Below, in pieces: positions 2,467 to 62,799 of a stretch of DNA of 64,000 bases. A program made the position numbers and the translations under genes. Position 1 is the first letter of the stretch, and each line of letters starts with the position of its first letter. The notes under the pieces were generated by a model. The model saw only the letters and a list, made by a program, of their open reading frames with translations, did no database searches and was not told the origin of the DNA. Source of the DNA: an uncultured Bacilli bacterium (GTDB lineage: Bacteria > Bacillota_I > Bacilli_A > RF39 > UBA660); the NCBI GenBank assembly GCA_934086955.1, contig CAKOIN010000006.1, forward strand, positions 2,159 through 66,158, written 5' to 3'.

Positions 2467-3198
2467 CTATTCATCCTTCTTTACAGTCTTTTTTACATTA
2501 GATTTCTTTGTTTTTTCACCACTAACTTTAGCTTCTTTAACATTAGCTTTTTTAGGTTCAACAGTTTCTTCTTTTTCTTCACTTACTTCTTTTTGATCAC
2601 TAACAACAACAGTATTCATAAGTAAATCATGAAGACCACAAGCATCAGGTCTAAACATTATAAATCCAAGAGATCCATAAACTATTAACATATCAATAAG
2701 TTCAACAATTCTATTAGCTTGTAAATACATTGATTGACTCATTGTACTTATAAATATTACAAGAATAATAGATGCGATAATTTCATTAATCAATAAACTT
2801 CTAACAAGTATTTGTACAAAACTTGCTCTTTTACCATTTTTAGATTTAACTCTAATTTTCATTAACCTTTTACCTATTGTTTGACCCTTATTAAGATATT
2901 GAAAAACAACAAAATATCCAAAAGTAATAACAATATTTAAAATAGAATTAGGAATTTGTAATTTAGCTAATCTATAACTAAAATTCTTATATTCATCCCC
3001 ACTCATTATATTTTTTAATCCATCACTTGTTGTACTATTCTTTTCAACATAAGTTGTAAATTCATCATAAACCTTATCATATTCTTCCGCATTAGGATTT
3101 AATAATTCTATTTTAGAAAATAACATGAATATAAATGCAACAACAGCTATATCAATAATATATGCACATACTCTTTTAAACACTGGCTTTTCCATCAT
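2467..3198 (-). CDS. RDD-family membrane protein with lysine-rich tail
   Basis: Three TM topology with an R..D..D-like central motif. Family assignment is tentative. Confidence 0.4.
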   Translation of the reverse strand: MMEKPVFKRVCAYIIDIAVVAFIFMLFSKIELLNPNAEEYDKVYDEFTTYVEKNSTTSDGLKNIMSGDEYKNFSYRLAKLQIPNSILNIVITFGYFVVFQYLNKGQTIGKRLMKIRVKSKNGKRASFVQILVRSLLINEIIASIILVIFISTMSQSMYLQANRIVELIDMLIVYGSLGFIMFRPDACGLHDLLMNTVVVSDQKEVSEEKEETVEPKKANVKEAKVSGEKTKKSNVKKTVKKDE

Positions 3199-12452: not shown

Positions 12453-13469
12453 ATGTGGAAAATAGGAAATGTAGAAATTAAAAATAGAATAGTATTCGCC
12501 CCAATGGCTGGTATATCTAATGAATCATTTAGAAAAATAATTAAATCTATGGATCCAGGACTTATTTATAGTGAAATGATAAGTAACATGGGAATTATAT
12601 ATAATAGTAAAAATACAATAGATATGTTAAAAATAAATAATGAAGAAAGGCCTATTAGCATACAAATATTCGGAAGTGATGAAGAAACATTTATCAAAGC
12701 AGCTAAATATATAGAAGAAAATATACATCCAGATATAATAGATATTAATATGGGATGTCCTGTACCAAAAGTAGCTCTAAAATCACAAGCAGGATCAAAT
12801 CTTTTAAAAAATCCAGATAAAATATATAAAATTGTATCTTCTATAGTAAATACAGTTAATATTCCAGTAACAGTTAAAATTAGAGCTGGTTGGGATAAAA
12901 ACTCAATTAATTGTGTAGAAGTTGCTAAAACAATTGAAAAAGCAGGAGCAAGTGCAATAGCTATACATCCAAGAACAAGAGAACAAGGATACACAGGAAA
13001 TGCTGACTGGACCTTAATTAAAAAAGTTAAAGATGCAGTTAATATTCCTGTTATTGGAAACGGTGATATTAAAACAATTGAAGATGCAAAAAGAATGTTA
13101 GAAGAAACCGGCTGCGATGCAGCTATGATCGGAAGAGCTACAATTGGAAATCCTTGGTTCATAAAAGAATGTGTAGAATATGTTGAAAATGGTAACATTA
13201 TAGATAAACCTACATATAAAGAAAGAATAGATATGTTAGTTAAGCATTATGAAATATTAAAAGAAGACACAAGTCCTAGAAAAGCATTACTTGATATTAA
13301 AACACATGCACTAGCATATCTAAAATATATTCCGAACTCAAAAGAATTAAAACAAGAAATAGCTTGTTCAAAAACAGAAGATGAATTTAATAATTGTATA
13401 AAAAAACTATATAATCACATAAAATGTATAAATTGTGAAAATAATAAAAATACTGACAATTCCTTGTAA
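12453..13469 (+). CDS. dus: tRNA-dihydrouridine synthase (DusB family)
   Basis: [14 protein letters not shown]-terminus and a TIM-barrel FMN-binding pattern. Confidence 0.8.
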
Positions 13470-13511
13470 AGCCAGTATTTTTTGTTATATAATTAAAACA
13501 AGGAGGATTAT

Positions 13512-14933
13512 ATGAAGAAAAGTGGATTATTTAAAATAATCATGTTTATTCTATTTGGAATTGTTATTTTAACTTGGTTCGTATCAGCTGGATATTATAA
13601 TTCAGGCAAATTAGTTGATTTAGGAATGAATCAACTAGGATTCTTTGATTTCTGGCAACTATTATTTGCTTCATTTGGTGGTTCAGATTTTGGATATTTC
13701 GTTCAAATTCTACTATTCTTAATATCAGTTGGAGCTTTATATGGTGTACTTGGCAAAACAGGTAAATATAGAGCAGCAATCGAAAAAATAGCAAACAAAT
13801 TCAAAGGCAATGAACTACATTTCATAGTTATTGTAGCATTCATAATAACAGTACTAACATCAGTATTCAGTTATGAATTATGGTTATTCATTTTCATACC
13901 AGCATTAATAAGTATTATCTTATTACTTGGTTATGATAAAGTAACTGCATGTGTTGCTACATTTGGTGCTATGTTAATTGGTAACATTGGTAGTACTATT
14001 GGTTATAATATAGTAGGTGCTATTCAAGAAAGCTTAGGAATTACTAAACTTTCAAATGGAATCTATTATAGACTTGGAATATTAGCATTTTCATTATTCG
14101 CTTTAATCTTCTATCTTTATAAAGCTAAAAGAACATCTGTTAAAAAAGATGATGTAAAAGCAATTGAAGCAGAAGATTTATTTGCTGGTGAAAGTAAAGC
14201 TAACAAATATTCAGTTGTACCAATAATCGTAATATTCTCAATATTATTTGTATTATTAATATTAGGATGTACTGCTTGGGAATCAACATTCAATGTAAAA
14301 ATATTTACTAAAATGAATGATGCTATTACTAGTTTTGCAATTGGAAAAGATAAATTTACTATATTTGGTAAATTACTTGGAAATGTTAGTGCATTTGGTT
14401 CATGGCATTATGCTGAAATGGCTGTTATGTGTACATTATCAGCATTATTACTTGGTAGATTCTATAGAATGAGTCACAAAGAAACAATAGATAACATGAT
14501 TGATGGAACTAAAAAAATATTAAATTCCGCTGTACTAGTTGTATTAGCTTATACTGTTGTATATTTTGCTTGTAATACAATGACTTATCCAACAATAGCT
14601 GATTTCATACTAAAAGCAACAAGTAAATTTAATATATTCTTTAGTACAATCTGTATGATACTTGGTTCAGTATTACATGTAGATATGTTATATGTAGTTA
14701 ACTATGTTATACCACAAATAGCAGGTCAAAATGTATCAACACTTGTAATGTCATTATTAGCACAAGGTATTTACGGAGTTACAATGTTCGTAGCACCTAC
14801 AAGTGTAGTATTAGTACTAGGACTTAGTTATTTAGGAATTCCTTATAAAGAATGGCTAAAAAGAACTTGGAAACTACTAGTAGCTTTATTAGCAATAGTT
14901 ATGGTAGCAATAATATTAGCTATGTTAATATAA
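13512..14933 (+). CDS. Polytopic membrane transporter, YfcC/DcuC-like family
   Basis: About 12 TM segments. N-terminal region resembles YfcC-family carriers. Confidence 0.35.
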   Translation: MKKSGLFKIIMFILFGIVILTWFVSAGYYNSGKLVDLGMNQLGFFDFWQLLFASFGGSDFGYFVQILLFLISVGALYGVLGKTGKYRAAIEKIANKFKGNELHFIVIVAFIITVLTSVFSYELWLFIFIPALISIILLLGYDKVTACVATFGAMLIGNIGSTIGYNIVGAIQESLGITKLSNGIYYRLGILAFSLFALIFYLYKAKRTSVKKDDVKAIEAEDLFAGESKANKYSVVPIIVIFSILFVLLILGCTAWESTFNVKIFTKMNDAITSFAIGKDKFTIFGKLLGNVSAFGSWHYAEMAVMCTLSALLLGRFYRMSHKETIDNMIDGTKKILNSAVLVVLAYTVVYFACNTMTYPTIADFILKATSKFNIFFSTICMILGSVLHVDMLYVVNYVIPQIAGQNVSTLVMSLLAQGIYGVTMFVAPTSVVLVLGLSYLGIPYKEWLKRTWKLLVALLAIVMVAIILAMLI

Positions 14934-20084: not shown

Positions 20085-20627
20085 ATGAAAAATGTATTAT
20101 ATGCACAACTTATAGGCGCAGCAGCAATGCTTACAATAACTCTTTCTGTACAATGTAGAAAAAAGAAACACATGATGATGGTACAATCAGCTGCTCATAT
20201 GTTATATGCATTTCAATATGCATTATTAGGTGCATTCTCAGCAGCATTTATGGATGCAATCGCAGTACTAAGAAATATGCTCTTCTATAAATATGATAAA
20301 AGTAAAAAACAAGTTCCATTATATTTAACAATTATTGTTTTATTAATAACAGCACTAATAGGTTATTTAAATTATACAAATCCATTATCACTATTGCCAG
20401 TTATAATAGCAATGCTCTACACAATAGGAGCTTCATTTAAAGATCCTAAAGTATATAAATATGTTTTCGGATTTTGTGCAATAGCATGGTTATTCTACAA
20501 TTTAAAATTTAAAGCATATGTCTGTGTCATTGGAAACATAATGGAGATAACTTCAACAACAATAGCTTTAATTAGAGATACTAAAAATTCAAAAAAGAAA
20601 AAAAGAAAAAAGAGTTCATCAAAATAA
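20085..20627 (+). CDS. Small polytopic membrane protein (YgjV-like), poly-Lys C-terminus
   Basis: Five predicted TM helices. No catalytic motif. Confidence 0.3.
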   Translation: MKNVLYAQLIGAAAMLTITLSVQCRKKKHMMMVQSAAHMLYAFQYALLGAFSAAFMDAIAVLRNMLFYKYDKSKKQVPLYLTIIVLLITALIGYLNYTNPLSLLPVIIAMLYTIGASFKDPKVYKYVFGFCAIAWLFYNLKFKAYVCVIGNIMEITSTTIALIRDTKNSKKKKRKKSSSK

Positions 20628-21824: not shown

Positions 21825-21939
21825 ATTTTCAACCCCTTATATGAATAAATTTATTTAAAGTCAAAATATAATACCACATTTTTTTAAAAAGTCAAATCAA
21901 TTAAAAAAGACACTCATTTTACAAAATTCAATGAATATG

Positions 21940-22400
21940 ATATAATGTAGATGTATGGAGCATTATGCTAGTCAAACATACCACTAGAAGATGGGGCTAA
22001 AAATCCATCAATTGTGTAAAAATGATACTTTATATATTTTGCTTCTTTCGCCCAGATTGGGGTGGATATATAATTTTAGATTTAAGGAAAAGATGTAATG
22101 GCATATATCCGAATCCTTATATCAAATCGAAGAACACGAACACACATGTCGTGAGTGAATTATTGGGATAGAAATTGAAAAATAATTTGCAAAAGCGAAT
22201 AAAAGTGATTTATGTTTGTTTGGGAAAACCTCTAGTATGCCTATATTATAAGGATTGAAGTGCGGACTAAGTGGTGATCGAGTGATCATTATGGCAACAA
22301 ATGGTTAATTCTTTTAAAGAGAAATCGCCCTAGGGTAACCGAAGGTAAGAATTAGAGAAATTCAACTCGACCAAAGCCGTAAAATTAATTTATAATATTC
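21940..22400 (+). ncRNA. Candidate large structured ncRNA (OLE-RNA-like)
   Basis: About 450 nt, ORF-free and clearly GC-enriched relative to the flanks. Many local helices (GGATATAT...ATATATCC, CCCTAGGG, GATCgagtGATC). Immediately followed by a roughly 20 kDa 4-TM protein, the arrangement known for ole-oapA. Boundaries are approximate. Confidence 0.3.
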
Positions 22401-22425
22401 CATACACAAAACCAAAGGGAGTTAA

Positions 22426-22950
22426 ATGAAAAAAGATAATTGGATAATAAAGGCATTTTTAATGACTTTTTTTATAGCACTAATTTTCAGTAGTGCTTCA
22501 AATTTTATAATTGCAAAATATAACAATACAATATTACTTATACTACTATGTATTTTATTTATTGGCATAGGAATATTATTTGATATAATTGGAACAGCAG
22601 TATTAACTGCAAATGAAGCATCATTTCATGCTAAAAGTTCTAAAAAAATAAAAGGTTCTAAAGAAGCTGTAAGATTAATAAAAAATTCAAGTACAATTGC
22701 AAGTATATGTAATGATGTTATTGGAGATATATGTGGAATAGTTAGTGGTTCAGTAGGAGCTATGCTTGCTATTAATATATCAGTAAAATTTGATTTATCA
22801 ACAATAATTGTAACATTATTAACAAGTTCAATAATATCTTCACTAACAGTTGGAGGTAAAGCAATTGGTAAAAAATATGCAATTAAAAAAAGCGATACAA
22901 TAATATTTGTAGTAGCAAAAATATTAAATAAATTAAAAATAGAGAAATAA
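22426..22950 (+). CDS. Four-TM small membrane protein, possible OapA (OLE-associated protein A)
   Basis: 174 aa with 4 predicted TM helices. Lies directly downstream of the structured non-coding segment. Confidence 0.3.
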   Translation: MKKDNWIIKAFLMTFFIALIFSSASNFIIAKYNNTILLILLCILFIGIGILFDIIGTAVLTANEASFHAKSSKKIKGSKEAVRLIKNSSTIASICNDVIGDICGIVSGSVGAMLAINISVKFDLSTIIVTLLTSSIISSLTVGGKAIGKKYAIKKSDTIIFVVAKILNKLKIEK

Positions 22951-30048: not shown

Positions 30049-30570
30049 TCCTTAATAAACAAAAAGCAACCAGTCCTGATAAAACTTGATTGCTTCGAGT
30101 TTCGAAAAAACTAATTATGAATCATTTATTTTATAATAATAATTATAAAATAAATACTTCTAAATATTATCAGTATTTAGCATAATTACTTATCATTTTG
30201 AGTTTTTCTTTCTCAACGATATATCATTTGTCCTTAGTAGATAAGTATTCTATTTCTTAAATTAATAAGACTATTTATTATTTATATATAATAAGTAATA
30301 TTAATTTATAAATAAGATAGATACATAAATTTATAATAAATTAATATTATAAATAAACATATAATTGAAATATAAATTTTAATATACCAAATATAAATAA
30401 TGAAATAAATATAGAATTTTTTCACTAAAATAATTTAGATTATATTTTATTATATAATATATAAATAATTAAATTTAAATACCACTAATAATTTATATAA
30501 CCAATTATCTATTGGACAATATTATTATATGAATATTATTATCAAATGTCAATACTTTTTTAAAAAAAAT

Positions 30571-37638: not shown

Positions 37639-38139
37639 TTAAAATATTTTTTTAAAGAATTCTAATATCTTAAAATCATATTTTATCTCTTCATCAAAAT
37701 TATCATCTATCATACACAAAGGAGGATATAAAATACACCAATAATTATTTCCTTTTGCCTCTCCAATAGTTACTACTAATGATTCATATTCACCATCTTT
37801 ATAAGTAATTCCATTGTATTTTTTAACTGGAAAATAATTCATTCCATAATTAACCTCAAAATTCATATTATAGTTATTATTATTAAAAAGTCTCTCTATT
37901 TCTTCTTCAATATTACTTATATTATTAATAATATTATTTCTAGTAATTTCCTTATCATTATAATCATTAAAAACATATTTAGATATTTTATTAACAACCA
38001 TTTCTTTCATAAGAATATCTTTACTAGAATTACTATTAGAAATAACTCTAAATCTAATCGCATCATCATTACTATAATTTTCAATATTAAAAAGTATTAC
38101 ACCTATAATAAACAATATTATAATTAACAATTTTTTCAT
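37639..38139 (-). CDS. spoIIR: Stage II sporulation protein R-like
   Basis: IRFRVISNSNSSKDILMKEMVVNKI matches the SpoIIR hallmark (RFHVIANSDS..D..LKL.VRD). Syntenic with prmC-prfA, as in Bacillus. Confidence 0.5.
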   Translation of the reverse strand: MKKLLIIILFIIGVILFNIENYSNDDAIRFRVISNSNSSKDILMKEMVVNKISKYVFNDYNDKEITRNNIINNISNIEEEIERLFNNNNYNMNFEVNYGMNYFPVKKYNGITYKDGEYESLVVTIGEAKGNNYWCILYPPLCMIDDNFDEEIKYDFKILEFFKKIF

Positions 38140-42532: not shown

Positions 42533-43678
42533 TTATTCTTCTATTTTTTCTCCACAATTACTGCAGAATTTTCCAGTTACAGGAGTTCCGCATTTAGGAC
42601 AAACTTTTTCTTCTTTCTTTTCTTCTTTTTTAGCAAAGATTGTGCCCATCTCTGGTTGATTAGTTTCTGGTTTATAACCTTCAACATCAGAACCTTGATT
42701 TGCAGCATTCATCATAGAACCAGCTGCTCCACTTGCCATATTCATTCCCATGAATCCCATCATAGATCCATTTTCATTACTAGCAGCACTTCTAAGAGCA
42801 TCAGCTGAAGCAGAAGCCATTAATCCAGATTGTAAATTCTTATTAGAGAATATTGTAGCCTCATCTATCTTATTTACTTTAACCATTGATTCATCAGTTA
42901 AGTTAATATCACTTAAAGCAACATCAGTAACTTCTAAACCATAATTTTTTCTCCAAGATTCATCTAAACATACATTCATTTCATCTGAAATATCAGAATT
43001 ATATAATCCCATATCACCAAATGAAACTTTATTTTTTCTCATAACAACAGAAATTGCTTGAGTTAATTTTTCTACAAACTTACTTTGTAATTGACTACCA
43101 ACTACTTCTTCATAAGTAACAGTATCAGATGGATTAGCACCAATAACACTATTTACTAAAAGAATTGGATCAACTACTTTAAAAGCATATTCACCAAAGA
43201 ATGTTACTTCTAACATACCATATTTTTCATCAGTAATTTTCTTTGGTTGTGGTGAACCAAACTTATTACCAGGAATATTTAATAAATTTACATAGTAAAC
43301 TCTTTGATCCTTAGCTGTTTGACCTCCATAAGTAAATCTCTTACCAATAGTCTTAAATGTATCAATAATGCCTTTTCCAAGACCACCAGTAAATATACTT
43401 GGTTCACTACTAGTATCAAAATAGAAAGTACCAGCATCTGCAGTAAATTCCTTTATTTCTCCATTTTCAATAATCATCATTGCCATTCCTTGTGGAACTA
43501 CAATTGTACTACCATTAGTAATAATTCCTTCAGAAGGATTTTTATTACCTTTTCCATGATTAACAATTCCTCTTTGTATTAAAACATTTTTAGAAATTGT
43601 AGGACATGTCACAAACTCCTTAAATTGATCACCTAAGGCAGTAGTTGTTGCCTCAGATAAAGCTTTAATAAGACCCAT
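42533..43678 (-). CDS. SPFH/band-7-like protein with C-terminal CxxC...CxxC zinc ribbon (YdjI-like)
   Basis: N-terminal SPFH-like domain. C-terminal CPKCGTPVTGKFCSNCGE. Confidence 0.5.
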   Translation of the reverse strand: MGLIKALSEATTTALGDQFKEFVTCPTISKNVLIQRGIVNHGKGNKNPSEGIITNGSTIVVPQGMAMMIIENGEIKEFTADAGTFYFDTSSEPSIFTGGLGKGIIDTFKTIGKRFTYGGQTAKDQRVYYVNLLNIPGNKFGSPQPKKITDEKYGMLEVTFFGEYAFKVVDPILLVNSVIGANPSDTVTYEEVVGSQLQSKFVEKLTQAISVVMRKNKVSFGDMGLYNSDISDEMNVCLDESWRKNYGLEVTDVALSDINLTDESMVKVNKIDEATIFSNKNLQSGLMASASADALRSAASNENGSMMGFMGMNMASGAAGSMMNAANQGSDVEGYKPETNQPEMGTIFAKKEEKKEEKVCPKCGTPVTGKFCSNCGEKIEE

Positions 43679-43766: not shown

Positions 43767-43788
43767 AAGAACTCTAATTAGAGTTCTT
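43767..43788 (-). terminator. Perfect 22-nt palindrome AAGAACTCTAA|TTAGAGTTCTT overlapping the stop of the ParB/Noc gene
   Basis: Followed on the minus strand by a T-run. Confidence 0.5.
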
Positions 43789-44973
43789 ATCAATTTCAAT
43801 TATTATTTGATATGAATCAGTTAAATCCAATTCAGTTGTAGTAATTAAATTACTAACTTCATCTAAACTAGAAATAAAATCTCTTACTTTATTAATTACA
43901 TTAGGCAAGTTAACTGAACCATCTTCTTCAAGTAATGAATCTTTATCTAGATATTCTTCTTCACTAGGAACTACTGGTTCTTCATAACTAACAGGTACCG
44001 TTTCAGTAACTGTACTTGATGGTACAACCGGATTTTCAGGTAAAACTTCAGTAGTTTTTGCAACTATAGGAGTTAATTCTTGTGAATTATCTATTGCATT
44101 AGCATAAGATTCCTTATCAAAACTTGTTTGTGTAATATTAGGGGTAGAAGCTGTTTGAAATGGATTTATAATTTCAGATTCATCAACATACTCAGTCATT
44201 GCTGCTTTTGCTTCAGGTTCAATTTTAACAACTTCTGGCACTCTTATATCTAAATATTCTTCAACTTGTTTATTTCCTAACATTTGTTCTTTTGATTCAA
44301 CTTTTGGTTCAATTTTTAAAAATCTTTTAATATCATCAGGTAATTCTTCTTGTTCTTTATTTCTATTTAATATTGCACTTATTTCTTCTTCTGTTTGCTT
44401 TACAGTAAGTTTTTCAGTAATAATTTTATTTAATAAATTCTTTTGCATATCAGCATCTGGAAGTGATAATAAACTTCTAGCATGTCTTTCTGATATTCTA
44501 TTATACAAAAGAGCATTTTGTACTTCTTTTGGTAAATTTAATAGTCTCATCTTATTAGCAATAGACGATTGACTTACACCTAATTTAGAAGCAATATCTT
44601 CTTGTGTGAATCCTCTATCCATTAACTTTTTATATGATTGTGCTTCCTCAATAACAGATAAATTCTTTCTTTGTAAATTTTCTAATAATGCTATCTCAGC
44701 ACTTGTATTATCATCTGTATTATTAATAATCGCAGGAATCTTTTTAAGACCAGCTAAACAAGAAGCCTTATATCTTCTTTCACCAGCAATAATCTCATAC
44801 TTATCCCCGATATTTCTAAGTACAATAGGTTGAATAACACCATATTTTATAATAGAATTAGCAAGCTCATTTAACTCTCTTTCATCAAAAGCTAACCTTG
44901 GTTGAAATCTATTCGGAATAATATCCTCAATAGGTATATAATAAATTTTTTCTTTTTCTTTGTTTTCTTCCAT
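43774..44973 (-). CDS. noc: ParB/Noc-family protein, more Noc-like than Spo0J-like, with a roughly 150-aa low-complexity C-terminal extension
   Basis: Noc-type motifs are IPNRFQPR, GVIQPIVLR, GERRYKAS, an HTH helix ending QSSIANKMRLL (Noc QSTIANKLRLL, Spo0J RPHIANHLRLL) and ISERHARSL. Sits immediately downstream of rsmG, the noc position in Bacillus. No soj/spo0J follows. Confidence 0.5.
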   Translation of the reverse strand: MEENKEKEKIYYIPIEDIIPNRFQPRLAFDERELNELANSIIKYGVIQPIVLRNIGDKYEIIAGERRYKASCLAGLKKIPAIINNTDDNTSAEIALLENLQRKNLSVIEEAQSYKKLMDRGFTQEDIASKLGVSQSSIANKMRLLNLPKEVQNALLYNRISERHARSLLSLPDADMQKNLLNKIITEKLTVKQTEEEISAILNRNKEQEELPDDIKRFLKIEPKVESKEQMLGNKQVEEYLDIRVPEVVKIEPEAKAAMTEYVDESEIINPFQTASTPNITQTSFDKESYANAIDNSQELTPIVAKTTEVLPENPVVPSSTVTETVPVSYEEPVVPSEEEYLDKDSLLEEDGSVNLPNVINKVRDFISSLDEVSNLITTTELDLTDSYQIIIEIDKNSN

Positions 44974-45051: not shown

Positions 45052-45762
45052 CTATTTATTTTTATATGTTTTTAAAATAGCACTATAACTTCTAGGATAC
45101 TTTTTATCAGTTATCTTATTTTTTTTGTATATTGGTATGCATCTATATGCATTTGTAATAGGTAATTCATATTCTATTCTATTTTCATGGGATAAGTTAA
45201 ATTTATTAATTATTTGATTAGCAACCTTTATTTCCTCATCAATATTTGATTTTAAAGGCATTAATAAACCATCAACTTTTAATAATGAAGTAGATAATTC
45301 AATAATAATTGGTAAAGCTGTAACAGCTCTACAAGTAACTATATCAAAGATTTCTCTATTTTTAACTGCATATTCTTCAACTCTACCATTTACTATACTA
45401 ACATTATCTAAATTTAATTCTTGTTTAATTAAATTAAGAAACAAACATTTTTTAGCATTTGACTCAATTAATGTAACATCAATATTATTAAAAACTATCG
45501 CTATTACCATACCTGGGAAACCAGCACCAGTTCCAAAATCTAATAATGTCTTTTTATCGTTTAAATAACCAGTTTTATTTAAACACAATGAATCATAAAA
45601 ATGTAATAGAAATACATCTTCATAAGAAGTGATAGTTGTCATATTAAATTTTTTATTATATTCAACTAATAACTCATAATATTTGTATAGTTTATCATAT
45701 AATTCATCAGTTATTTCAATATTAATATTTTTACAATATTCTTTAAATTTTTCTTTATTCAT
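45052..45762 (-). CDS. rsmG: 16S rRNA (guanine527-N7)-methyltransferase
   Basis: GidB family, SAM motif LDFGTGAGFPG. Confidence 0.85.
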   Translation of the reverse strand: MNKEKFKEYCKNINIEITDELYDKLYKYYELLVEYNKKFNMTTITSYEDVFLLHFYDSLCLNKTGYLNDKKTLLDFGTGAGFPGMVIAIVFNNIDVTLIESNAKKCLFLNLIKQELNLDNVSIVNGRVEEYAVKNREIFDIVTCRAVTALPIIIELSTSLLKVDGLLMPLKSNIDEEIKVANQIINKFNLSHENRIEYELPITNAYRCIPIYKKNKITDKKYPRSYSAILKTYKNK

Positions 45763-51150: not shown

Positions 51151-52623
51151 TCATTTGTATTCTATTAAATTTACCAATGAATTTCTAAGTTCTACAAAAT
51201 TTTGATATTTATTTATATATTTATATATATCTTTTAAAAATTCTTCTCCACTTACAATTCTTCCATCTTTTAAATAAACTATAGAATCAATAGAAATTGA
51301 ATCTAATACATTATTTTCTTTAAAATATTCTTTAACAGTAGTTTTTTTGCCATCAAAAGTATCAACAACTTTATTTCCATATTCAATATTTAAAGGAAAC
51401 ATAAATACTTCTTTTTTTGAAAAATCTTCTTCCTCTTTGATATTTAATTCTACTTTATAGTTATTTTTAATAGCAAATTTTAATATTTTATTTACTTCAT
51501 CTAATGGAAATCCCATTTTTTTATAAGCGAAGAATCCACTTGAAAATAATAACATTAATTGATATATATGATCATTATTCATATTTAAAAAATTTAAGTT
51601 TTGAGCAACATTTTTATAGTTATCAGATAAAATCTTACTATATATACTATAAAAATAACTATAATACTTACTACTTTCTTCTTTTTTTATGACATTTTCA
51701 TAAAATTTTGAATATATAGCATTTAAATAATCTTCACTACCAAATGAAATAATCCTTTTATCATCTTTATGTTCAAAATATATCATCTTATCTTCATCTA
51801 ATTTAAGATTAAACTCACTCATTTCAAAACTTCCTATATCTAAAGATGAGTTATAATCAAAAAGCTCAAATACATCTTTATTATTAATAATAATATCTAA
51901 TGTTTTATATATTATTAAAAGCATCCTTTTTTTATTTAATTTTCTTTCTATTTTATACTTATTTAATATATATTCATAATAATCTTTTAATATAGAAAAA
52001 TTTTCAATTTCAAAATTTTCTTTCTTAAAATCACTAAAATATTCGTATAAAAGCAACATATAAAAATTTTTAAAATTATAAGGTCTATATTCAGAAGAAA
52101 TTCCTAACAAATTAGTTTGTGGTATGAAAGGAATTATTCTTGATTTAACTTCATTTTCGATATCATTATCACTTTTAAAGAAATTAATTATCTTTCTTGC
52201 ATTATTTACATTATCCACTCTTATTTGTAAAAGAGGATTTTTAACTACCTTCATTAACTTAATTTTAGAATTTATTTTATTTTCTATTAAAAAATTCAAA
52301 ATTTTTATTGTTATTTTTTCATAATTATTTTCAAAAACTGGTACATCAATTATGATATCAGGTATTGAAACATTCTGTAAATTATATTCTAGGTTTATTT
52401 TATAAGAATATTTAAATTCTTTATATGAGAATTTTGCCTTACTTTCGGGCAAAATTGACAATATCTGTTCAAATATTTTTTTGGTTATTTGAATTATATT
52501 TTTATTTAAATCACCTATTTTTACATTAAAACTTAAACATGTATTTATAAATTCTTCAAAATTTTTTTGTTCATAAATTGTATATAACTTTTTAAAATAA
52601 TCTTCTATCTGCATTCTATCCAT
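51151..52623 (-). CDS. Hypothetical 490-aa protein inserted between rpmH and dnaA
   Basis: Long uninterrupted ORF with no motif recognisable by eye. Its position interrupts the normally adjacent rpmH-oriC-dnaA arrangement. Confidence 0.35.
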   Translation of the reverse strand: MDRMQIEDYFKKLYTIYEQKNFEEFINTCLSFNVKIGDLNKNIIQITKKIFEQILSILPESKAKFSYKEFKYSYKINLEYNLQNVSIPDIIIDVPVFENNYEKITIKILNFLIENKINSKIKLMKVVKNPLLQIRVDNVNNARKIINFFKSDNDIENEVKSRIIPFIPQTNLLGISSEYRPYNFKNFYMLLLYEYFSDFKKENFEIENFSILKDYYEYILNKYKIERKLNKKRMLLIIYKTLDIIINNKDVFELFDYNSSLDIGSFEMSEFNLKLDEDKMIYFEHKDDKRIISFGSEDYLNAIYSKFYENVIKKEESSKYYSYFYSIYSKILSDNYKNVAQNLNFLNMNNDHIYQLMLLFSSGFFAYKKMGFPLDEVNKILKFAIKNNYKVELNIKEEEDFSKKEVFMFPLNIEYGNKVVDTFDGKKTTVKEYFKENNVLDSISIDSIVYLKDGRIVSGEEFLKDIYKYINKYQNFVELRNSLVNLIEYK

Positions 52624-52659: not shown

Positions 52660-52850
52660 AAATATTATGTTAACTTATTTTTGAATTTATTATGTTAACT
52701 TTATCAACAATGTATCAACATTTTATGTTAACTTATCAACAAGTTATTAACAATTCAAGTTTACATAATAATTTTAAATTGTTGATATTGTTGATAACTA
52801 TAAAAAATAATCTAAATTAAAGGAAAAAAATGTTTACAAAATGTGGATAT
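52660..52850. promoter_or_regulatory. oriC DnaA-box cluster upstream of dnaA
   Basis: TTATCAACA at about 52701 and 52733, GTATCAACA at about 52712, the complement TGTTGATAA at about 52789, TGTGGATAT at about 52841, and TATGTTAAC repeated three times. Confidence 0.6.
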
Positions 52851-52950
52851 CTTGTTAATATAAGTGTTAATAAATTTTTTTGTTTTGACATTAAAAAAAG
52901 TTGATTTATAATTTATCTTAGAAAGACAAAAAGAAAGGAAGTAAATATAT

Positions 52951-55677: not shown

Positions 55678-55726
55678 AATAGTGTGTGCTATTATAGTGG
55701 CCATTAAAAAGAAAGGGGGAAAAATA

Positions 55727-56182
55727 ATGAATTATGAAATTACTTATGATACACAAGTAATAGCACCTATTGATAAGAACACAGCAAAAGTAATAGAAAC
55801 TGATGCAGAATATATAATAGAAACTCCCGTGTTAAATATTCTTGAACATAGTTGTGAATATTTTGGAAGTTCTTATGAAGGAAGAAAAGAAGGTACTAAG
55901 AAGTTGTTAGGCATAACACATAAATCTCCAATAATAGTTGAAGAAAGCAGAAAAATAATATTTTTTCCAACTTCATCAGCCGAAAATGAAGATTGTATAT
56001 GGATTAATTTAGAAAAGATAGATAAATATTTCAAATTAGGTCCAAAAAAATCAGCAATAAGATTTCAAAATGGTGATTTTATAGAATTTGATGTATCATA
56101 TGGATCACTTTCTAATCAAATTTTAAGAGCTACTAGATTAAAATTTATACTTGAAGAAAGAATATTAAAAAAAGATAATTAA
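55727..56182 (+). CDS. comK: ComK-family competence transcription factor homolog
   Basis: LEHSCEYFGSSYEGRKEGTKKLLGITHKSPIIVEESRKIIFFPTSS, DCIWINL and VSYGSLSNQILRATRLK align to B. subtilis ComK (VDRSCRFFGSSYAGRKAGT...HKPPIMVDPSNQIFLFPTLS...CGWI...ISYNSFENQVYRTAWLR). Start taken at ATG 55727 after AAAGGGGGA. The track ORF begins at an upstream GTG. Confidence 0.6.
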   Translation: MNYEITYDTQVIAPIDKNTAKVIETDAEYIIETPVLNILEHSCEYFGSSYEGRKEGTKKLLGITHKSPIIVEESRKIIFFPTSSAENEDCIWINLEKIDKYFKLGPKKSAIRFQNGDFIEFDVSYGSLSNQILRATRLKFILEERILKKDN

Positions 56183-59298: not shown

Positions 59299-61731
59299 AT
59301 GGATAGAATAGTACAAAATAATATAGTTAAAGAAGTCAAAGATTCATTTCTAGATTATTCCATGAGTGTTATAGTTGCAAGAGCTATACCTGATCTAAGA
59401 GACGGTTTAAAGCCTGTTCACAGAAGAATTTTATACTCAATGTATGAATCAGGTTATACCCCAGATAAACAACACAGAAAATGTGCTAGAATCGTCGGAG
59501 ATGTAATGGGAAAATACCATCCACATGGAGACTCATCAATATATGAAGCAATGGTTAGAATGGCACAAGATTTTAGTTATAGATATATGCTTGTGGATGG
59601 ACACGGAAACTTTGGTAACATGGATGGTGATGGCGCAGCAGCAATGCGTTACACAGAAGCAAGATTATCAAAAGTAAGTTTAGAATTGTTAAGAGATATA
59701 AATAAAAATACAGTAGATTTTATACCAAACTTTGATGAAACAGAAAAAGAACCAGTAGTAATTCCAAGTAGATTTCCAAACATTTTAGTAAATGGAACTA
59801 TGGGAATTGCAGTAGGTATGGCAACAAATATTCCACCACATAACTTAGGAGAAGTAATTGATGGTTGTATTGCATATATAGATAATCCACAAATAACTAC
59901 TGATGAAATGATGCAATATATAAAAGGTCCTGATTTTCCAACAGGAGCAATAATACTTGGAAATAGTGGAATAAAAAAAGCCTATGAAACAGGAAGAGGA
60001 ACAATTACTATTAGATGTAAAGCTGAAATAGAAGAATCTAATAATAGAAATAGAATAATAATTACAGAAATTCCTTACGGAGTTAATACATTAGAATTAA
60101 AAAATAGAATAGCTGAACTAGTTAGAGATAAAGTTTTAGAAGGAATTGCTGATTACCATGAAGAAACAAATATTGAAAATGGTGTTAAAATAGTAATTAC
60201 ATTAAAAAAAGAAGCAAATGCAAATGTTGTATTAAATAATTTATATAAACACACTCAATTACAATCAACATTCGGAATAATATTCTTAATGTTAGATCAA
60301 GGTCAACCAAGAACATTGGGAATTGTTGATATTATTTCTAAATATATAGATTATCAAAGAGAAATAATAGTTAGAAGAACAAGATTTGATTTAGCAAAAG
60401 CAGAAGCAAGGGCACATATTTTAGAAGGATATAAAATCGCATTAGACCATATAGATGATATTATTAAAATAATCAAAGAAAGTCAAAGCGATGTACTTGC
60501 AAAACAAAGATTAATAGAAAAATATAGATTTAGCGAGATTCAAGCTGATGCAATACTAGAGTTAAAATTAAGAAGATTAACTGGATTAGAAAGAGAAAAA
60601 ATAGAAGAAGAATTAGCTAATTTATTAAAATTAATTGAAGAATATAAATCAATACTAGCAAACGAACAAAAAGTATTAGATATAATTAAGAAAGAAATGC
60701 TTGAGATTAAAGAAAAATTCGGAGATGAAAGAAGAACAAAAATTGATAATACAGCAATAGAATATATTGAAGATGAATCTTTAATACCACAAGAAGATAT
60801 AATAATAACTTTAACAAATAAAAATTATATAAAAAGAATTCCAAAAGATACATACAAAGTACAAAATAGAGGCGGAGTTGGTATAAAAGGAATGACTACA
60901 ACTGAAGAAGACTTCGTAGAACAGTTAATTTCACTAAATACACATGACTACTTATTATTCTTCACAAATAAAGGAAAAGTATATAGACTAAAAGGATACA
61001 AAATTCCAGAATTTTCAAGAACAGCAAAAGGTTTACCTATCGTTAATATATTATCACTAGAAAAAGATGAAAAAATCAACACAATGATAACAATAAGTGA
61101 AAAAGATACATACAAATGTTTGCTTTTTAGTACTAAAAACGGATTAATTAAGAGAACTTTAATAAGCGAATTTGATAATATTAGACAAAGCGGAAAAATT
61201 GCAATTACTTTAAAAGATAATGACGAGTTAATATCAGTAAAGAAAACAACAGGTAATGATCAAATATTTATGTGTTCATCAAACGGAAGAATGGCAAGAT
61301 TCAATGAAGAAGAAATAAGAATAATGGGAAGAACAGCTTCAGGAGTTAGAGGAATTAATTTATCAAATGACATATGTGTTGGTACTGAAGTGTCTGAACC
61401 AGGAAAAATGTTATTAGTAGTTACTGAAAATGGTTACGGTAAGAAAACTTCTATGGACGAATATAGAGAAACAAAAAGAGGAAGTAAAGGTGTAAAGACA
61501 TTAAATATTACTGATAAAAACGGCAAAATAGTAGGATTTAAATCAACTGATAATGAAAAAGATCTAATGATTATAACTGAAAATGGAGTAATAATTAGAA
61601 TGGATGTTAATTCAATATCACAAATGGGCAGAGTAACAAAAGGTGTAAGACTAATAAATCTTAAAGAGGATAATAAGGTTGCTTCAATATCAATTTTAGA
61701 AAAAGAAAATGAAATTGAAGAATCAGAATAA
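59299..61731 (+). CDS. gyrA: DNA gyrase subunit A
   Basis: Active-site Tyr region [14 protein letters not shown]-like HPHGDSS, C-terminal beta-pinwheel. Confidence 0.95.
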
Positions 61732-61743
61732 ACAAAAATAAAA

Positions 61744-62605
61744 AATGTTCCATGTGGAACATTTTTTATTATTAAAAAAATTATTTCCCGGGAAATAATT
61801 TTAAATTAATATAGAATATCAAAAAAAAGTTATTAACAATGTTCCACGTGAAACATAGTATATCTATTAGCATAAAATTTTGATTTTGATTTTTAAATAT
61901 ATTATTTTGGATGTTAACCAATCAAAACAATTAATAATGTTCCACGTGGAACATTATTAACAATTAAACTATTTAAAAAATATTTATTTTTTGTTTTAAT
62001 AATTTAAATAATAGGATTATTTATGATAGAGTAAAAAAATATTTTTTTATAATGTTTCACGTGAAACATTATTAACACTATAATATAAAATATTTATATT
62101 GCTTAATTATCTATTTCTAAAATTGATTTATAAAGTTTTATAATAAAAATATAAGATATAAATATATATGCATTAAAAGAATAGTTTTCACTCAAAATTA
62201 TATAATGTTCCATGTGGAACATTATTAACAGAAAAAAAATAATTATAGAGAATACTTAACTAAAAAACAATTTAATATTAACTAACGATTAACATATAAT
62301 ATAAATTAATTAAAAAAGAATAAAATTTATAATACACATTTAAACTAAAATTAAATAATGTTCCACATGGAACATTATAAATGAAATATTTTAAATTAGG
62401 ACTAAAGCAACTAAAAAATTATAATAACTTTGCTAGAAATGGGTAAACCTATTATTTTTAACAATACAACATTAATATTACATATGGAATACTAATATGA
62501 ATATAAAAATAATAAAAAATATTAACAAGATATTTAATATAACATAATAAGATTTATAATTGATAACATTTAAAAAGTTATTAACAATGTTCCACGTGGA
62601 ACATA
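61744..62605. repeat. parS: Array of seven parS-type 16-bp palindromes (TGTTNCACGTGNAACA) in non-coding DNA
   Basis: Cores at about 61746-61761 (TGTTCCATGTGGAACA), 61840-61855 (TGTTCCACGTGAAACA), 61938-61953 (TGTTCCACGTGGAACA), 62053-62068 (TGTTTCACGTGAAACA), 62206-62221 (TGTTCCATGTGGAACA), 62359-62374 (TGTTCCACATGGAACA) and 62588-62603 (TGTTCCACGTGGAACA). Most are embedded in a longer unit TTATTAACAATG...CATTATTAACA. Confidence 0.7.
61781..61798. promoter_or_regulatory. Perfect Noc-binding-site-type palindrome TTATTTCCCGGGAAATAA (NBS consensus ATTTCCCGGGAAAT)
   Basis: Exact 14-bp NBS core within an 18-bp perfect palindrome, 20 bp after the first parS. Confidence 0.5.
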
Positions 62606-62695
62606 CAATAAATAACAAAAATAACACAGATAAAAATTCTTAACAAAAAAATAAAATTATTATTGTAAAAGAATATAACTTATGATAATATATAC

Positions 62696-62776
62696 ATGTG
62701 CAACAAGGTTTAGTGAACCAGGTCAGAGTTGGAAGACAGCAGCCTTAAGCTTTTAATCTTGTGTGCACATTTTATT
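62696..62776 (+). ncRNA. ffs: Small-type SRP RNA (4.5S/scRNA)
   Basis: ACCAGGUCAGAGUUGGAAGACAGCAGCC matches the domain IV consensus ACCAGGUCAGGUCCGGAAGGAAGCAGCC, including the GGAA tetraloop. Closed by an ATGTGCA..CAAGG / CTTG..TGCACAT stem and followed by a T-run. Located next to tadA/dnaX as in Bacillus. Confidence 0.55.
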
Positions 62777-62799
62777 TATATTAAAATACGAAAAGGTGT

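What the first reader, a model, noticed from the sequence alone, without database searches (positions are those of the whole stretch)
61781..61798. Perfect Noc-binding-site (NBS) palindrome embedded in the parS array
TTATTTCCCGGGAAATAA contains the exact 14-bp NBS consensus ATTTCCCGGGAAAT described for B. subtilis Noc. It lies 20 bp from the first parS. NBS and parS are the diverged recognition sites of the paralogous Noc and Spo0J proteins, so having both side by side at one locus is an unusual juxtaposition. It could also double as a stem-loop terminator for gyrA.
Basis: partly seen in the sequence, partly recalled or inferred. Interest (0 to 1): 0.6.

Follow-up and report, generated by a model that had tools for sequence, protein, structure and literature searches.

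The report
Noc-binding site within origin parS cluster
A perfect docking site for a Noc-type DNA-clamp protein sits among the chromosome's centromere (parS) sites just after gyrA, and related uncultured gut bacteria keep the same pairing, which suggests that a "nucleoid occlusion" protein without its membrane anchor works here at the replication origin beside ParB.

Summary
TTATTTCCCGGGAAATAA lies at 61781-61798, inside a 26-bp perfect palindrome (61777-61802). It is 19 bp after the first of seven parS-like sites that fill the gyrA-SRP RNA spacer. Chance expectation for the 14-mer is about 5e-5 per window.

The site is conserved. In 80 related species (uncultured gut Bacilli, about 25% GC) the exact 14-mer occurs 131 times in 1.48 Mb (0.002 expected). 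It accounts for 131 of 138 CCCGGG hexamers. Eighty-eight copies lie within 2 kb after gyrA, interleaved with parS. The closest relatives keep a parS-NBS-parS module while the flanks diverge.

The only ParB-family gene in the window (43774-44973, after rsmG) scores best against Noc. It carries Q-K-N-R at the four specificity positions, which predicts NBS binding. It lacks Noc's N-terminal membrane-targeting helix and has a long low-complexity linker, as do all 150 family representatives.

A metagenome sample of NBS-bearing contigs put 51 of 56 low-GC contigs in the dnaA-gyrA-mfd zone. In this lineage NBS sites are therefore origin-proximal rather than scattered.

The gyrA-terminator idea is not favoured. 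A canonical ParB for the parS sites was not found in the reachable sequence.

Verdict: a real Noc-type site and a new variant of the Noc/NBS system.

The parts
61777..61802 (.). 26-bp perfect palindrome AAAATTATTTCCCGGGAAATAATTTT. It contains the 16-bp NBS TATTTCCCGGGAAATA (61782-61797) and the 14-bp core (61783-61796).
   Evidence: Searches give the sequence and chance expectation. The 16-mer is invariant in relatives while the flanks diverge. It is identical in four strains.
61746..61761 (.). parS-like site 1, TGTTCCATGTGGAACA. Together with its A6/T6 flanks (61740-61767) it is the better candidate for the gyrA terminator hairpin.
   Evidence: The RNA fold gives -16.2 kcal/mol, z = -5.6. The terminator scan flags it on the minus strand.
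61840..61855 (.). parS site 2, TGTTCCACGTGAAACA
61938..61953 (.). parS site 3, TGTTCCACGTGGAACA, inside a 30-bp palindrome
62053..62068 (.). parS site 4, TGTTTCACGTGAAACA (perfect canonical parS)
62206..62221 (.). parS-like site 5, TGTTCCATGTGGAACA
62359..62374 (.). parS-like site 6, TGTTCCACATGGAACA
62588..62603 (.). parS site 7, TGTTCCACGTGGAACA
43774..44973 (-). Noc-type ParB-family gene (399 aa), directly after rsmG. It has ParB_N and HTH_ParB domains, specificity residues Q-K-N-R, no N-terminal membrane-targeting helix, a low-complexity linker of about 140 aa, and a conserved C-terminal module of about 45 aa. It is the predicted binder of the NBS.
59299..61731 (+). gyrA. Its stop codon lies 50 bp upstream of the NBS 18-mer.
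61830..61838 (+). TTATTAACA, a DnaA-box-like 9-mer abutting parS site 2. Further copies lie at 61954-61962, 62069-62077, 62222-62230 and 62578-62586. All are on the + strand and each touches a parS.
   Evidence: The same 9-mer family (TTATCAACA/TTATTAACA) makes up the box cluster upstream of dnaA.
62687..62783 (+). SRP RNA gene, the right-hand boundary of the 955-bp non-coding spacer that holds the parS/NBS cluster
52660..52880 (.). Context: presumed oriC DnaA-box cluster upstream of dnaA, about 9 kb from the NBS. The GC-skew minimum is nearby.

Best explanation
The palindrome is a genuine Noc-binding site. It is the specific nucleation (loading) site for the Noc-type ParB-family CTPase encoded at 43774-44973. 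Selection maintains it as a fixed component of a composite origin-proximal region made of parS sites plus NBS, lying between gyrA and the SRP RNA gene.

Proposed mechanism:
- A dimer of the Noc-type protein recognises the 16-bp NBS through its HTH. Q173 reads the A:T at position 1 and R201 reads the C:G at position 6.
- The protein binds CTP, closes into a clamp and slides onto neighbouring DNA.
- This builds a nucleoprotein domain over the origin-proximal DNA, side by side with ParB loaded at the flanking parS sites.

The protein has no membrane-targeting helix, and NBS sites in this lineage cluster around the origin instead of being scattered. Its role is therefore more likely origin-region organisation, origin positioning, or coupling to replication or division than classical genome-wide nucleoid occlusion.

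Shown: the site, its conservation and clustering, and the protein's domains, motifs and specificity residues. Inferred: binding, clamp formation, spreading and the cellular role.
For: **Exact site.** The 16-bp NBS is present with a chance expectation of about 5e-5 per window.

**Conservation.**
- 131 exact 14-mers occur in 1.48 Mb from 80 related species, against 0.002 expected. They account for 131 of 138 CCCGGG hexamers.
- All 16 positions are invariant while the flanks diverge. That pattern fits a protein site, not an RNA stem.

**Clustering with parS.**
- 88 of 131 copies lie within 2 kb after gyrA, which is 9% of the DNA.
- 50 lie within 50 bp of a parS centre, and 29 of 80 species have an NBS within 100 bp of a parS.
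- L032 carries 13 tandem 83-bp units, each with one parS and one NBS.

**Cognate protein.**
- It has ParB_N and HTH_ParB domains.
- Its best PDB hits are Noc at 3e-60, against Spo0J/ParB at about 1e-45.
- It sits at the ancestral noc position after rsmG.
- The GERRYKA, ENLQR and PNRFQPR motifs are present.
- It carries Q, K, N, R at positions 173/179/184/201. This satisfies the published rule for NBS specificity: Q173 plus R201 plus K at 179 or 184. R173 and G201 are invariant in ParB (PMC7383237).
- 149 of 150 family representatives keep Q173 and R201.

**Origin focus.**
- 51 of 56 low-GC metagenome contigs picked solely by the NBS 16-mer come from the dnaA-gyrA-mfd zone. Among 64 higher-GC contigs, none carries gyrA, tadA or dnaX and one carries dnaA.
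- NBS density is 6.5 per 10 kb in the first 2 kb after gyrA, about 1 per 10 kb at 2-8 kb, and 0 at 8-10 kb and inside the dnaA-gyrA operon.
Against: - **No binding data.** Nothing here is experimental.
- **Only one NBS in this species.** About 78 kb of reachable sequence holds a single site, so a multi-site system is shown only for relatives.
- **Curated cut-off missed.** The protein scores 278.7 against the 315-bit cut-off of TIGR04285. It also lacks the defining membrane helix, so the known Noc mechanism cannot simply be transferred.
- **Position 184 is N, not K.** The published rule tolerates this, but it was derived in a Caulobacter ParB scaffold.
- **Sampling limits.** It does not rest on a complete genome.
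- **Many species lack the site there.** 42 of 80 have no exact NBS within 2 kb of gyrA.
- **No ParB found.** The parS-binding ParB that the model assumes was not found within -56 to +21 kb of oriC or in any related locus.
Confidence: 0.75

Rival explanations
1. Ordinary nucleoid-occlusion NBS. On this view the site is one of many NBS scattered over the chromosome, as in B. subtilis and S. aureus, and its position beside parS is incidental. The protein would act as a classical Noc, using some other means of reaching the membrane.
For: The site is identical to the canonical NBS, and one site per 64 kb matches the B. subtilis density of roughly 70 sites in 4.2 Mb (my knowledge of Wu et al. 2009; 41 sites in S. 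aureus, PMC5540599). Relatives also have NBS inside genes several kb away. Five of 56 low-GC NBS contigs are not from the origin zone, for example L112 next to polA and L185 in a glycosyltransferase gene. Two of 150 family members end in a TM-like segment.
Against: The parS-NBS adjacency recurs in 29 of 80 species and in tandem units. Of the low-GC NBS contigs, 51 of 56 map to one zone of about 22 kb in genomes of about 1.3 Mb, where about 2% would be expected if sites were scattered. The same test on other Firmicutes does show scattering. No membrane-targeting helix is present in 147 of 150 family representatives. [quoted passage not shown]
Confidence: 0.15
2. The site is an RNA element. On this view the palindrome is kept because it forms the stem-loop of the gyrA intrinsic terminator, or a second back-up terminator, and its NBS-like sequence is a coincidence.
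For: It lies 50 bp after the gyrA stop, is flanked by an A-run and a T-run, and folds at -8.8 kcal/mol, z = -4.8.
Against: The terminator scan did not flag it, because the stem has only 1-2 G-C pairs. A stronger hairpin, parS#1 at -16.2 kcal/mol, lies between it and gyrA. In L009-L016 and L018 a separate canonical terminator hairpin precedes the NBS. The 16-mer is invariant, with no compensatory changes, across species whose GyrA identity runs from 70% to 97%. The same 16-mer also occurs inside coding regions, far from any gene end and in tandem arrays.
Confidence: 0.04
3. The site is chance, or a decayed parS copy with no function of its own.
For: NBS and parS half-sites differ at only 2-3 positions, and the region is full of parS copies.
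Against: Expectation is about 5e-5 per window. There are 131 exact copies in relatives against 0.002 expected, and NBS variants with 1-2 mismatches are rare compared with exact copies. No intermediate parS/NBS hybrids were seen in the arrays.
Confidence: 0.01
4. The site is bound by something other than the Noc-type protein. Candidates are a CCCGGG-specific restriction-modification enzyme, an unrelated transcription factor, or the (unfound) ParB itself.
For: Binding has not been tested. CCCGGG is a SmaI/XmaI-type target, and the hexamer is almost absent outside NBS (131 of 138 copies lie inside an NBS), as would be seen under restriction avoidance.
Against: Conservation extends over all 16 bp, not 6. 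The 16-mer equals the experimentally defined NBS. A protein with matching specificity residues is encoded about 17 kb away and is conserved throughout the lineage. ParB proteins with R173/G201 do not bind NBS (PMC7383237).
Confidence: 0.05

Closest known systems
Noc-NBS nucleoid occlusion system of Bacillus subtilis and Staphylococcus aureus (Wu et al. 2009; Adams et al. 2015; Pang et al. 2017, PMC5540599; Jalal et al. 2020/2021, PMC7383237, PMC8429893)
   Same: The 16-bp site TATTTCCCGGGAAATA is identical. The protein is a ParB-family member with N-terminal CTPase-domain motifs and an HTH. It keeps Q173, K179 and R201. The gene sits directly after rsmG. Its best structural-sequence matches are Noc (7nfu, 7ng0, 7ol9).
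   Different: There is no N-terminal amphipathic membrane-targeting helix (alpha1) and no alpha2. A variable low-complexity linker of about 140 aa (up to about 500 aa in relatives) separates the DNA-binding domain from the C-terminal module. Position 184 is N rather than K. The protein scores below the TIGR04285 cut-off. NBS sites cluster with parS next to the origin instead of being scattered over the origin-proximal two thirds of the chromosome. No soj-spo0J follows the gene.
ParB(Spo0J)-parS chromosomal centromere
   Same: The site is a 16-bp palindrome related to parS and lies within about 10 kb of oriC. It occurs in multiple copies per origin region in relatives. The presumed mechanism is CTP-dependent clamp loading and spreading.
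   Different: The sequence differs from parS at the two specificity-determining positions per half-site. The predicted reader has Q/R instead of R/G at positions 173/201. No ParA partner lies adjacent.
Origin-proximal site clusters for accessory DNA-binding proteins in B. subtilis (RacA-ram sites, RefZ-RBM sites; recalled from general knowledge plus bioRxiv 10.1101/459685, listed)
   Same: These are specific binding motifs concentrated around oriC that position or organise the origin region, in a spore-forming Firmicute. The window and its extensions encode SpoIIR, SpoIID, BofA and SpoVT.
   Different: The protein families are unrelated (RacA, and the TetR-like RefZ), the motifs are different, and none is interleaved base-to-base with parS.
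Iterated centromere arrays of plasmid partition systems (for example parC of R1, or sopC/parS iterons; recalled from general knowledge)
   Same: The relatives L031 and L032 carry head-to-tail repeats of 82-83 bp (7 and 13 copies), each holding the binding sites.
   Different: Each unit here carries sites for two different paralogous readers (parS and NBS), and the array is chromosomal.

Membership tests
NBS (Noc-binding site) | Match to the 14-bp core ATTTCCCGGGAAAT / 16-bp TATTTCCCGGGAAATA palindrome | tested here: met
   Exact match at 61782-61797.
NBS (Noc-binding site) | Evolutionary maintenance as a sequence-specific site, with all positions constrained | tested here: met
   131 exact copies occur in 80 species against 0.002 expected. 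The flanks diverge while the 16-mer stays invariant.
NBS (Noc-binding site) | Occupied by Noc in vivo or bound in vitro | not testable with these tools
   Needs EMSA, BLI or ChIP.
NBS (Noc-binding site) | Many sites scattered round the chromosome, depleted near the terminus | tested here: not met
   Only one site was found in about 78 kb of this species. In the lineage, 51 of 56 NBS-bearing low-GC contigs come from the origin zone of about 22 kb. Density falls to 0 by 8-10 kb from gyrA. A whole-genome scan was not possible, so the result is strong but indirect.
Noc (nucleoid occlusion protein, TIGR04285) | ParB N-terminal (CTPase) domain plus ParB HTH domain, with GERRxRA and ENLQR motifs | tested here: met
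   PF02195 at 5.6e-33 and PF17762 at 1.5e-33. The motifs are read directly.
Noc (nucleoid occlusion protein, TIGR04285) | Reaches the curated family score | tested here: not met
   Score is 278.7 bits against a cut-off of 315. The match covers model positions 2-209 of 255 only.
Noc (nucleoid occlusion protein, TIGR04285) | Closer to Noc than to ParB/Spo0J | tested here: met
   PDB Noc hits score 185-208 bits against 134-160 bits for ParB/Spo0J. Against a Halanaerobiales pair, Noc scores 189 bits and ParB 159 bits. No phylogeny was built.
Noc (nucleoid occlusion protein, TIGR04285) | NBS-specificity residues Q173, K179 and/or K184, R201 (Caulobacter ParB numbering) | tested here: met
   The window protein has Q, K, N, R by alignment to Noc and ParB structures. 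The rule comes from PMC7383237. 149 of 150 family representatives keep Q and R.
Noc (nucleoid occlusion protein, TIGR04285) | Gene directly downstream of rsmG (gidB) near oriC | tested here: met
   rsmG lies at 45052-45762 and the gene at 43774-44973. The order is the same in L026 and in the Halanaerobiales contig L143.
Noc (nucleoid occlusion protein, TIGR04285) | N-terminal amphipathic membrane-targeting helix (about 10 aa) required for nucleoid occlusion | tested here: not met
   Residue 1 of the query aligns to residue 19 of 7nfu, and residue 2 to residue 22 of 7ol9. An in-frame stop lies 11 codons upstream with no alternative start. The N-terminus has a hydrophobic moment of 0.1-0.3 and negative hydrophobicity. 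The same is true in 147 of 150 family representatives.
Noc (nucleoid occlusion protein, TIGR04285) | CTP-dependent clamp that recruits DNA to the membrane and blocks Z-ring assembly | not testable with these tools
   Biochemistry and cell biology are needed.
ParB-parS partition system (for the neighbouring sites) | parS consensus TGTTNCACGTGAAACA clustered near oriC | tested here: met
   Seven sites lie at 61746-62603 against 0.17 expected. 358 sites with at most 1 mismatch occur in the 80 related loci.
ParB-parS partition system (for the neighbouring sites) | A ParB with R173/G201 (and usually ParA) encoded in the genome | tested here: inconclusive
   None was found in the window, in its -4/+10 kb extensions, or in any of 80 related 22-kb loci. 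A search seeded with a Halanaerobiales ParB returned only that order.
Intrinsic (rho-independent) terminator | G+C-rich stem-loop followed by a U-tract immediately after the gene | tested here: not met
   The scan did not flag it, because the stem has only 1-2 G-C pairs. The fold gives -8.8 kcal/mol against -16.2 for the upstream parS#1 hairpin. Relatives have separate terminators.

The most novel reading that the evidence does not exclude
In this large uncultured gut Bacilli lineage, Noc may have lost its membrane anchor and been repurposed as a second origin-proximal ParB-like clamp. Its loading sites (NBS) are interleaved with parS, in some species as tandem parS+NBS units. The chromosome's centromere region would then be built by two paralogous CTPase clamps with orthogonal DNA specificities. 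A stronger version is also not excluded by the reachable sequence: the Noc-type protein could be the only ParB-family protein in these genomes of about 1.3 Mb, because soj-spo0J is missing from its ancestral place after noc.
Probability: 0.4. Interest if true: 0.8.

Novelty: new variant of a known kind. Interest (0 to 1): 0.7.

Why it matters
Noc is the textbook example of a ParB paralogue that changed both its DNA specificity and its job, from centromere binding to membrane-tethered nucleoid occlusion.

Here the DNA specificity (NBS, with Q/K/R residues) is retained. The membrane helix is absent, and the sites sit among the centromere sites at the origin. At least 150 protein clusters at 50% identity share this architecture.

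This gives a natural system in which two things can be tested. One is what a Noc clamp does without membrane binding. The other is whether two orthogonal ParB-family clamps cooperate, insulate or compete on the same few hundred base pairs. It also bears on how specificity and function diverged after the parB/noc duplication.

It additionally provides ready-made natural tandem parS+NBS arrays, which are relevant to the ParB/Noc-based dual-colour DNA-labelling tools (PMC11109969).

On the practical side, these proteins are annotated only as "ParB/RepB/Spo0J family partition protein". They would be misread as the chromosome's ParB.

Tried and rejected
**Hunting the canonical ParB of the lineage.** No ParB was found, so this stays unresolved.
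- tblastn with the ParB N-terminal and HTH region against the window and all fetched loci found only the Noc-type gene.
- Walking beyond the window by 4 kb to the left (ending in a transposase) and 10 kb to the right (dnaX to spoVT) found nothing.
- Using the Halanaerobiales ParB from contig L143 as a seed returned only Halanaerobiales proteins.

**gyrA terminator reading.** Rejected as the main function.

**DnaA-box-like TTATTAACA abutting parS.** This is real in the window and its nearest clade. It is not general in the lineage (33 of 296 parS sites), so it is not part of the core explanation.

**C-terminal module as a Noc CTD.** The resemblance seen by eye was not supported by BLASTP against a bona fide Noc (E = 3.6). 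It is kept only as a lead.

**A relocated amphipathic helix.** The segment "DDIKRFLKI" (residues 213-221) has the highest hydrophobic moment, but it is conserved only in the closest relatives.

**Link to the SPFH/zinc-ribbon gene downstream of the Noc-type gene.** Synteny is not conserved. L026 has an SDR gene there.

**Names for the protein family.** No source names it beyond "ParB/RepB/Spo0J family partition protein".

**Literature.** Searches for composite parS/NBS arrays or helix-less Noc found nothing in the held library. This is absence in that library only.

**First look-up of tadA.** It failed because of a frame error and was repeated.
Full report
**Observation.** The sequence TTATTTCCCGGGAAATAA is at window 61781-61798, as reported.
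- The exact 14-bp NBS core ATTTCCCGGGAAAT lies at 61783-61796. It is the only site in the window within three mismatches of that core.
- Read directly, the symmetry extends to a 26-bp perfect palindrome, AAAATTATTTCCC|GGGAAATAATTTT, at 61777-61802.
- The window is 25% G+C, and CCCGGG occurs only twice in 64 kb. The expected number of exact 14-mers is 3e-5 to 9e-5 per window under iid or Markov order 1-3 models.
- The site lies 50 bp after the gyrA stop (61731).
- It lies 19 bp after the first of seven parS-like palindromes (61746-62603; 7 found against 0.17 expected).
- These palindromes fill the 955-bp non-coding spacer between gyrA and the SRP RNA gene (62687-62783).

**Genomic setting.** The window spans a chromosomal origin.
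- The gene order is rpmH-rnpA-yidC-jag-mnmE-mnmG-rsmG on the minus strand and dnaA-dnaN-comK-recF-gyrB-gyrA on the plus strand. The GC-skew minimum falls between them.
- The DNA matches human-gut metagenome scaffolds.
- GyrA-based retrieval shows it belongs to a large uncultured lineage labelled Bacilli, Tenericutes or Mycoplasmatota in the records. G+C is 22-33%, and one member is a circular 1.31-Mb genome.

**Is the site maintained by selection?** Yes, strikingly so.
- In the 80 related species loci (gyrA +/-10 kb, 1.48 Mb in total) the exact 14-mer occurs 131 times against 0.002 expected. It accounts for 131 of all 138 CCCGGG hexamers.
- The seven closest relatives (GyrA 89-97% identical) keep the order parS, about 27 bp, NBS, about 37 bp, parS directly after gyrA. 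The surrounding spacer sequence has diverged.
- All 16 positions are invariant, without compensatory changes. This is the signature of a protein-binding site rather than an RNA stem.
- 88 of the 131 copies lie within 2 kb downstream of gyrA, which is 9% of the DNA.
- 50 lie within 50 bp of a parS centre, and 29 of 80 species have an NBS within 100 bp of a parS.
- In L032 an 83-bp unit containing one parS and one NBS is repeated 13.2 times. L031 has seven such units.
- Four other assemblies of the window's own species carry the identical site.

**The predicted reader.** The only ParB-family gene in the window is 43774-44973 (minus strand, 399 aa), directly after rsmG. That is the ancestral position of noc.
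- It has ParB_N and HTH_ParB domains and the PNRFQPR, GERRYKA and ENLQR motifs.
- Its best matches among solved structures are Noc proteins (7nfu 3e-60, 7ng0, 7ol9), ahead of Spo0J/ParB at about 1e-45.
- Jalal et al. 2020 (PMC7383237) showed that parS versus NBS specificity is set by four residues, RTAG in ParB and QKKR in Noc. Q173 reads the A:T at NBS position 1. R201 reads the C:G at position 6. A lysine at 179 or 184 is required as a permissive residue. R173 and G201 are invariant in ParB orthologues.
- By the alignments the window protein reads GVS**Q**SSIAN**K**MRLL**N**LP...SE**R**HAR, that is Q-K-N-R. It fulfils the published rule for NBS specificity and lacks both ParB-invariant residues.
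- A search of 1.84 billion representative proteins returned 150 clusters of the same architecture. Of these, 149 keep Q173 and R201, 146 keep K179, and position 184 is mostly N.

**How it differs from textbook Noc.**
- *No membrane helix.* The N-terminal amphipathic membrane-targeting helix (alpha1) and helix alpha2 are absent. Nucleoid occlusion is impaired without the amphipathic helix (alpha1) (PMC8429893). Query residue 1 aligns to residue 19 of G. thermoleovorans Noc. An in-frame TAA lies 11 codons upstream with no alternative start and a good RBS. The N-terminus is highly charged with no amphipathic character. The PNRFQPR motif sits at residue 14-21 in 147 of 150 family representatives, so this is a family trait and not an annotation artefact.
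- *Long linker.* A low-complexity E/V/P/K/T-rich linker of about 140 aa separates the DNA-binding domain from a conserved C-terminal module of about 45 aa (...YQIIIEIDK). Total length in relatives runs from 227 to 744 aa.
- *Below the curated cut-off.* The protein scores 278.7 bits against TIGR04285, below the cut-off of 315. Only model positions 2-209 of 255 are matched.
- *No soj-spo0J.* These genes do not follow it, unlike the ancestral mnmG-rsmG-noc-soj-spo0J order still seen in a Halanaerobiales contig (L143).

**Where are NBS sites in this lineage?** A whole genome could not be read, so two indirect tests were used.
- *Density profile in the 80 loci.* Density is 6.5 NBS per 10 kb in the first 2 kb after gyrA. 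It is about 1 per 10 kb at 2-8 kb, partly at conserved positions inside dnaX and a gene of about 237 aa. It is zero at 8-10 kb and zero across the whole dnaA-gyrA operon. It is 0.5 per 10 kb just left of dnaA.
Of the 56 with G+C below 33%, 51 carry ORFs matching the lineage's dnaA-gyrA-tadA-dnaX-mfd neighbourhood. About 2% would be expected for sites scattered over 1.3 Mb.
- *Internal control.* The 64 higher-G+C contigs (other Firmicutes) never carry gyrA, tadA or dnaX, and only one carries dnaA. [quoted passage not shown]
- *This species.* Only one NBS exists in about 78 kb around the origin.
- In this lineage the NBS is therefore an origin-proximal element co-located with parS.

**Terminator idea.** As RNA, the NBS region folds at -8.8 kcal/mol. 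The stem has only one or two G-C pairs, and the terminator scan does not flag it. The parS#1 palindrome with its A6/T6 flanks, which lies between gyrA and the NBS, folds at -16.2 kcal/mol and is terminator-like. In L009-L016 and L018 a separate canonical hairpin plus T-run follows gyrA and the NBS comes after it. A terminator role is therefore at most incidental.

**What remains open.** The parS sites are as well conserved as the NBS: 358 sites with at most one mismatch in the 80 loci. They require a reader with R173/G201.
- No such gene lies within -56 to +21 kb of oriC in this species or in any related 22-kb locus.
- A protein search seeded with the only low-GC ParB available (Halanaerobiales) did not reach the lineage.
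- I consider a ParB encoded elsewhere the most likely situation, but this is not shown.

**Most likely mechanism.**
- *Shown.* An invariant NBS is embedded among parS sites at the origin. A conserved Noc-derived ParB-family protein carries NBS-type specificity residues and intact CTPase-domain motifs. The membrane helix is absent. NBS sites are concentrated at the origin.
- *Inferred.* The protein nucleates on the NBS, closes as a CTP-dependent clamp and spreads over adjacent origin-proximal DNA, next to ParB loaded at parS. It acts in origin organisation or positioning, or in coupling to replication or division, rather than in genome-wide nucleoid occlusion. S. aureus Noc restrains replication initiation (PMC5540599).
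- *Not excluded.* A classical nucleoid-occlusion role using another route to the membrane remains possible (about 15%).

**Novelty.** The site and the protein family are known kinds. Three features were not found described in the searchable literature: the helix-less, long-linker Noc subfamily, the origin-focused NBS distribution, and the interleaved or tandem parS+NBS arrangement. I classify the finding as a new variant of a known kind, of clear interest to specialists in ParB/Noc biology.

Noticed in passing
window 61830-61838, 61954-61962, 62069-62077, 62222-62230, 62578-62586; window 52690-52880: Five of the seven parS sites are directly abutted, always on the + strand, by TTATTAACA. The presumed oriC upstream of dnaA is built from the same 9-mer family (TTATCAACA x4, TTATTAACA x2) and contains no canonical TTATNCACA box. 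This suggests a shifted DnaA-box consensus (TTATNAACA) and composite DnaA-box+parS units. The pairing is restricted to the window's nearest clade (33 of 296 parS sites in the 80 loci).
   Followed up: partly
window 61740-61767: The first parS-like palindrome is flanked by A6 and T6 and folds at -16.2 kcal/mol. It looks like a bidirectional intrinsic terminator for gyrA, so a centromere site may double as a terminator.
   Followed up: partly
L032 13044-14136; L031 about 13100-13750: These are tandem arrays of an 82-83-bp unit (13.2 and about 7 copies, 95% identical). Each unit holds one parS and one NBS about 36 bp apart, downstream of gyrA in two related species.
   Followed up: partly
L121 (NBS 1502, noc 1352-1972), L194 (1728, noc 1590-2189), L137 (2833, noc 2854-3435), L098, L158: In higher-G+C Firmicute metagenome contigs an exact NBS lies inside or immediately beside the noc gene itself. 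This resembles the parS that sits within spo0J in B. subtilis. The window species has no NBS near its noc-type gene.
   Followed up: no
L024-L027, L060 (+2.1 to +2.5 kb from gyrA, inside dnaX); about 20 loci at +5.4 to +7.1 kb inside a gene of about 237-280 aa: Exact NBS 14-mers sit at recurrent positions inside coding sequences in many related species. The site is therefore maintained within ORFs as well as in spacers.
   Followed up: partly
window 55682-56182 (+): A ComK-family gene (PF06338, 2.6e-45) is inserted between dnaN and recF in the origin operon. This is an unusual position for the competence regulator.
   Followed up: no
window 21939-22419 (+): An OLE (ornate large extremophilic) RNA (219 bits) is present in a 25% G+C human-gut bacterium with a genome of about 1.3 Mb. 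A 174-aa ORF follows at 22426-22950.
   Followed up: no
window 30160-30252 (-): A PGK RNA motif (RF03040, 82 bits) is present.
   Followed up: no
window 51151-52623 (-): A 490-aa ORF with no confident Pfam or NCBIfam match occupies the slot between rpmH and dnaA, directly bordering the DnaA-box cluster. It is conserved in the same place in other assemblies of the species.
   Followed up: no
window 42533-43678 (-): An SPFH/Band-7 protein with a C-terminal zinc ribbon is encoded immediately downstream of the Noc-type gene in this species. The neighbourhood is not conserved, since L026 has an SDR gene there.
   Followed up: partly
window 37639-38139 (spoIIR), 673-1602 (spoIID); L088 13029-13205 (bofA), 20113-20408 (spoVT): Sporulation genes are present in a lineage with genomes of only about 1.3 Mb that records label Tenericutes or Mycoplasmatota.
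   Followed up: no
P0127 (residues 365-383), P0167 (residues 224-242): Two of 150 Noc-type family representatives end in a strongly hydrophobic TM-like segment instead of the conserved C-terminal module. These could be real membrane anchors or frameshift artefacts.
   Followed up: no
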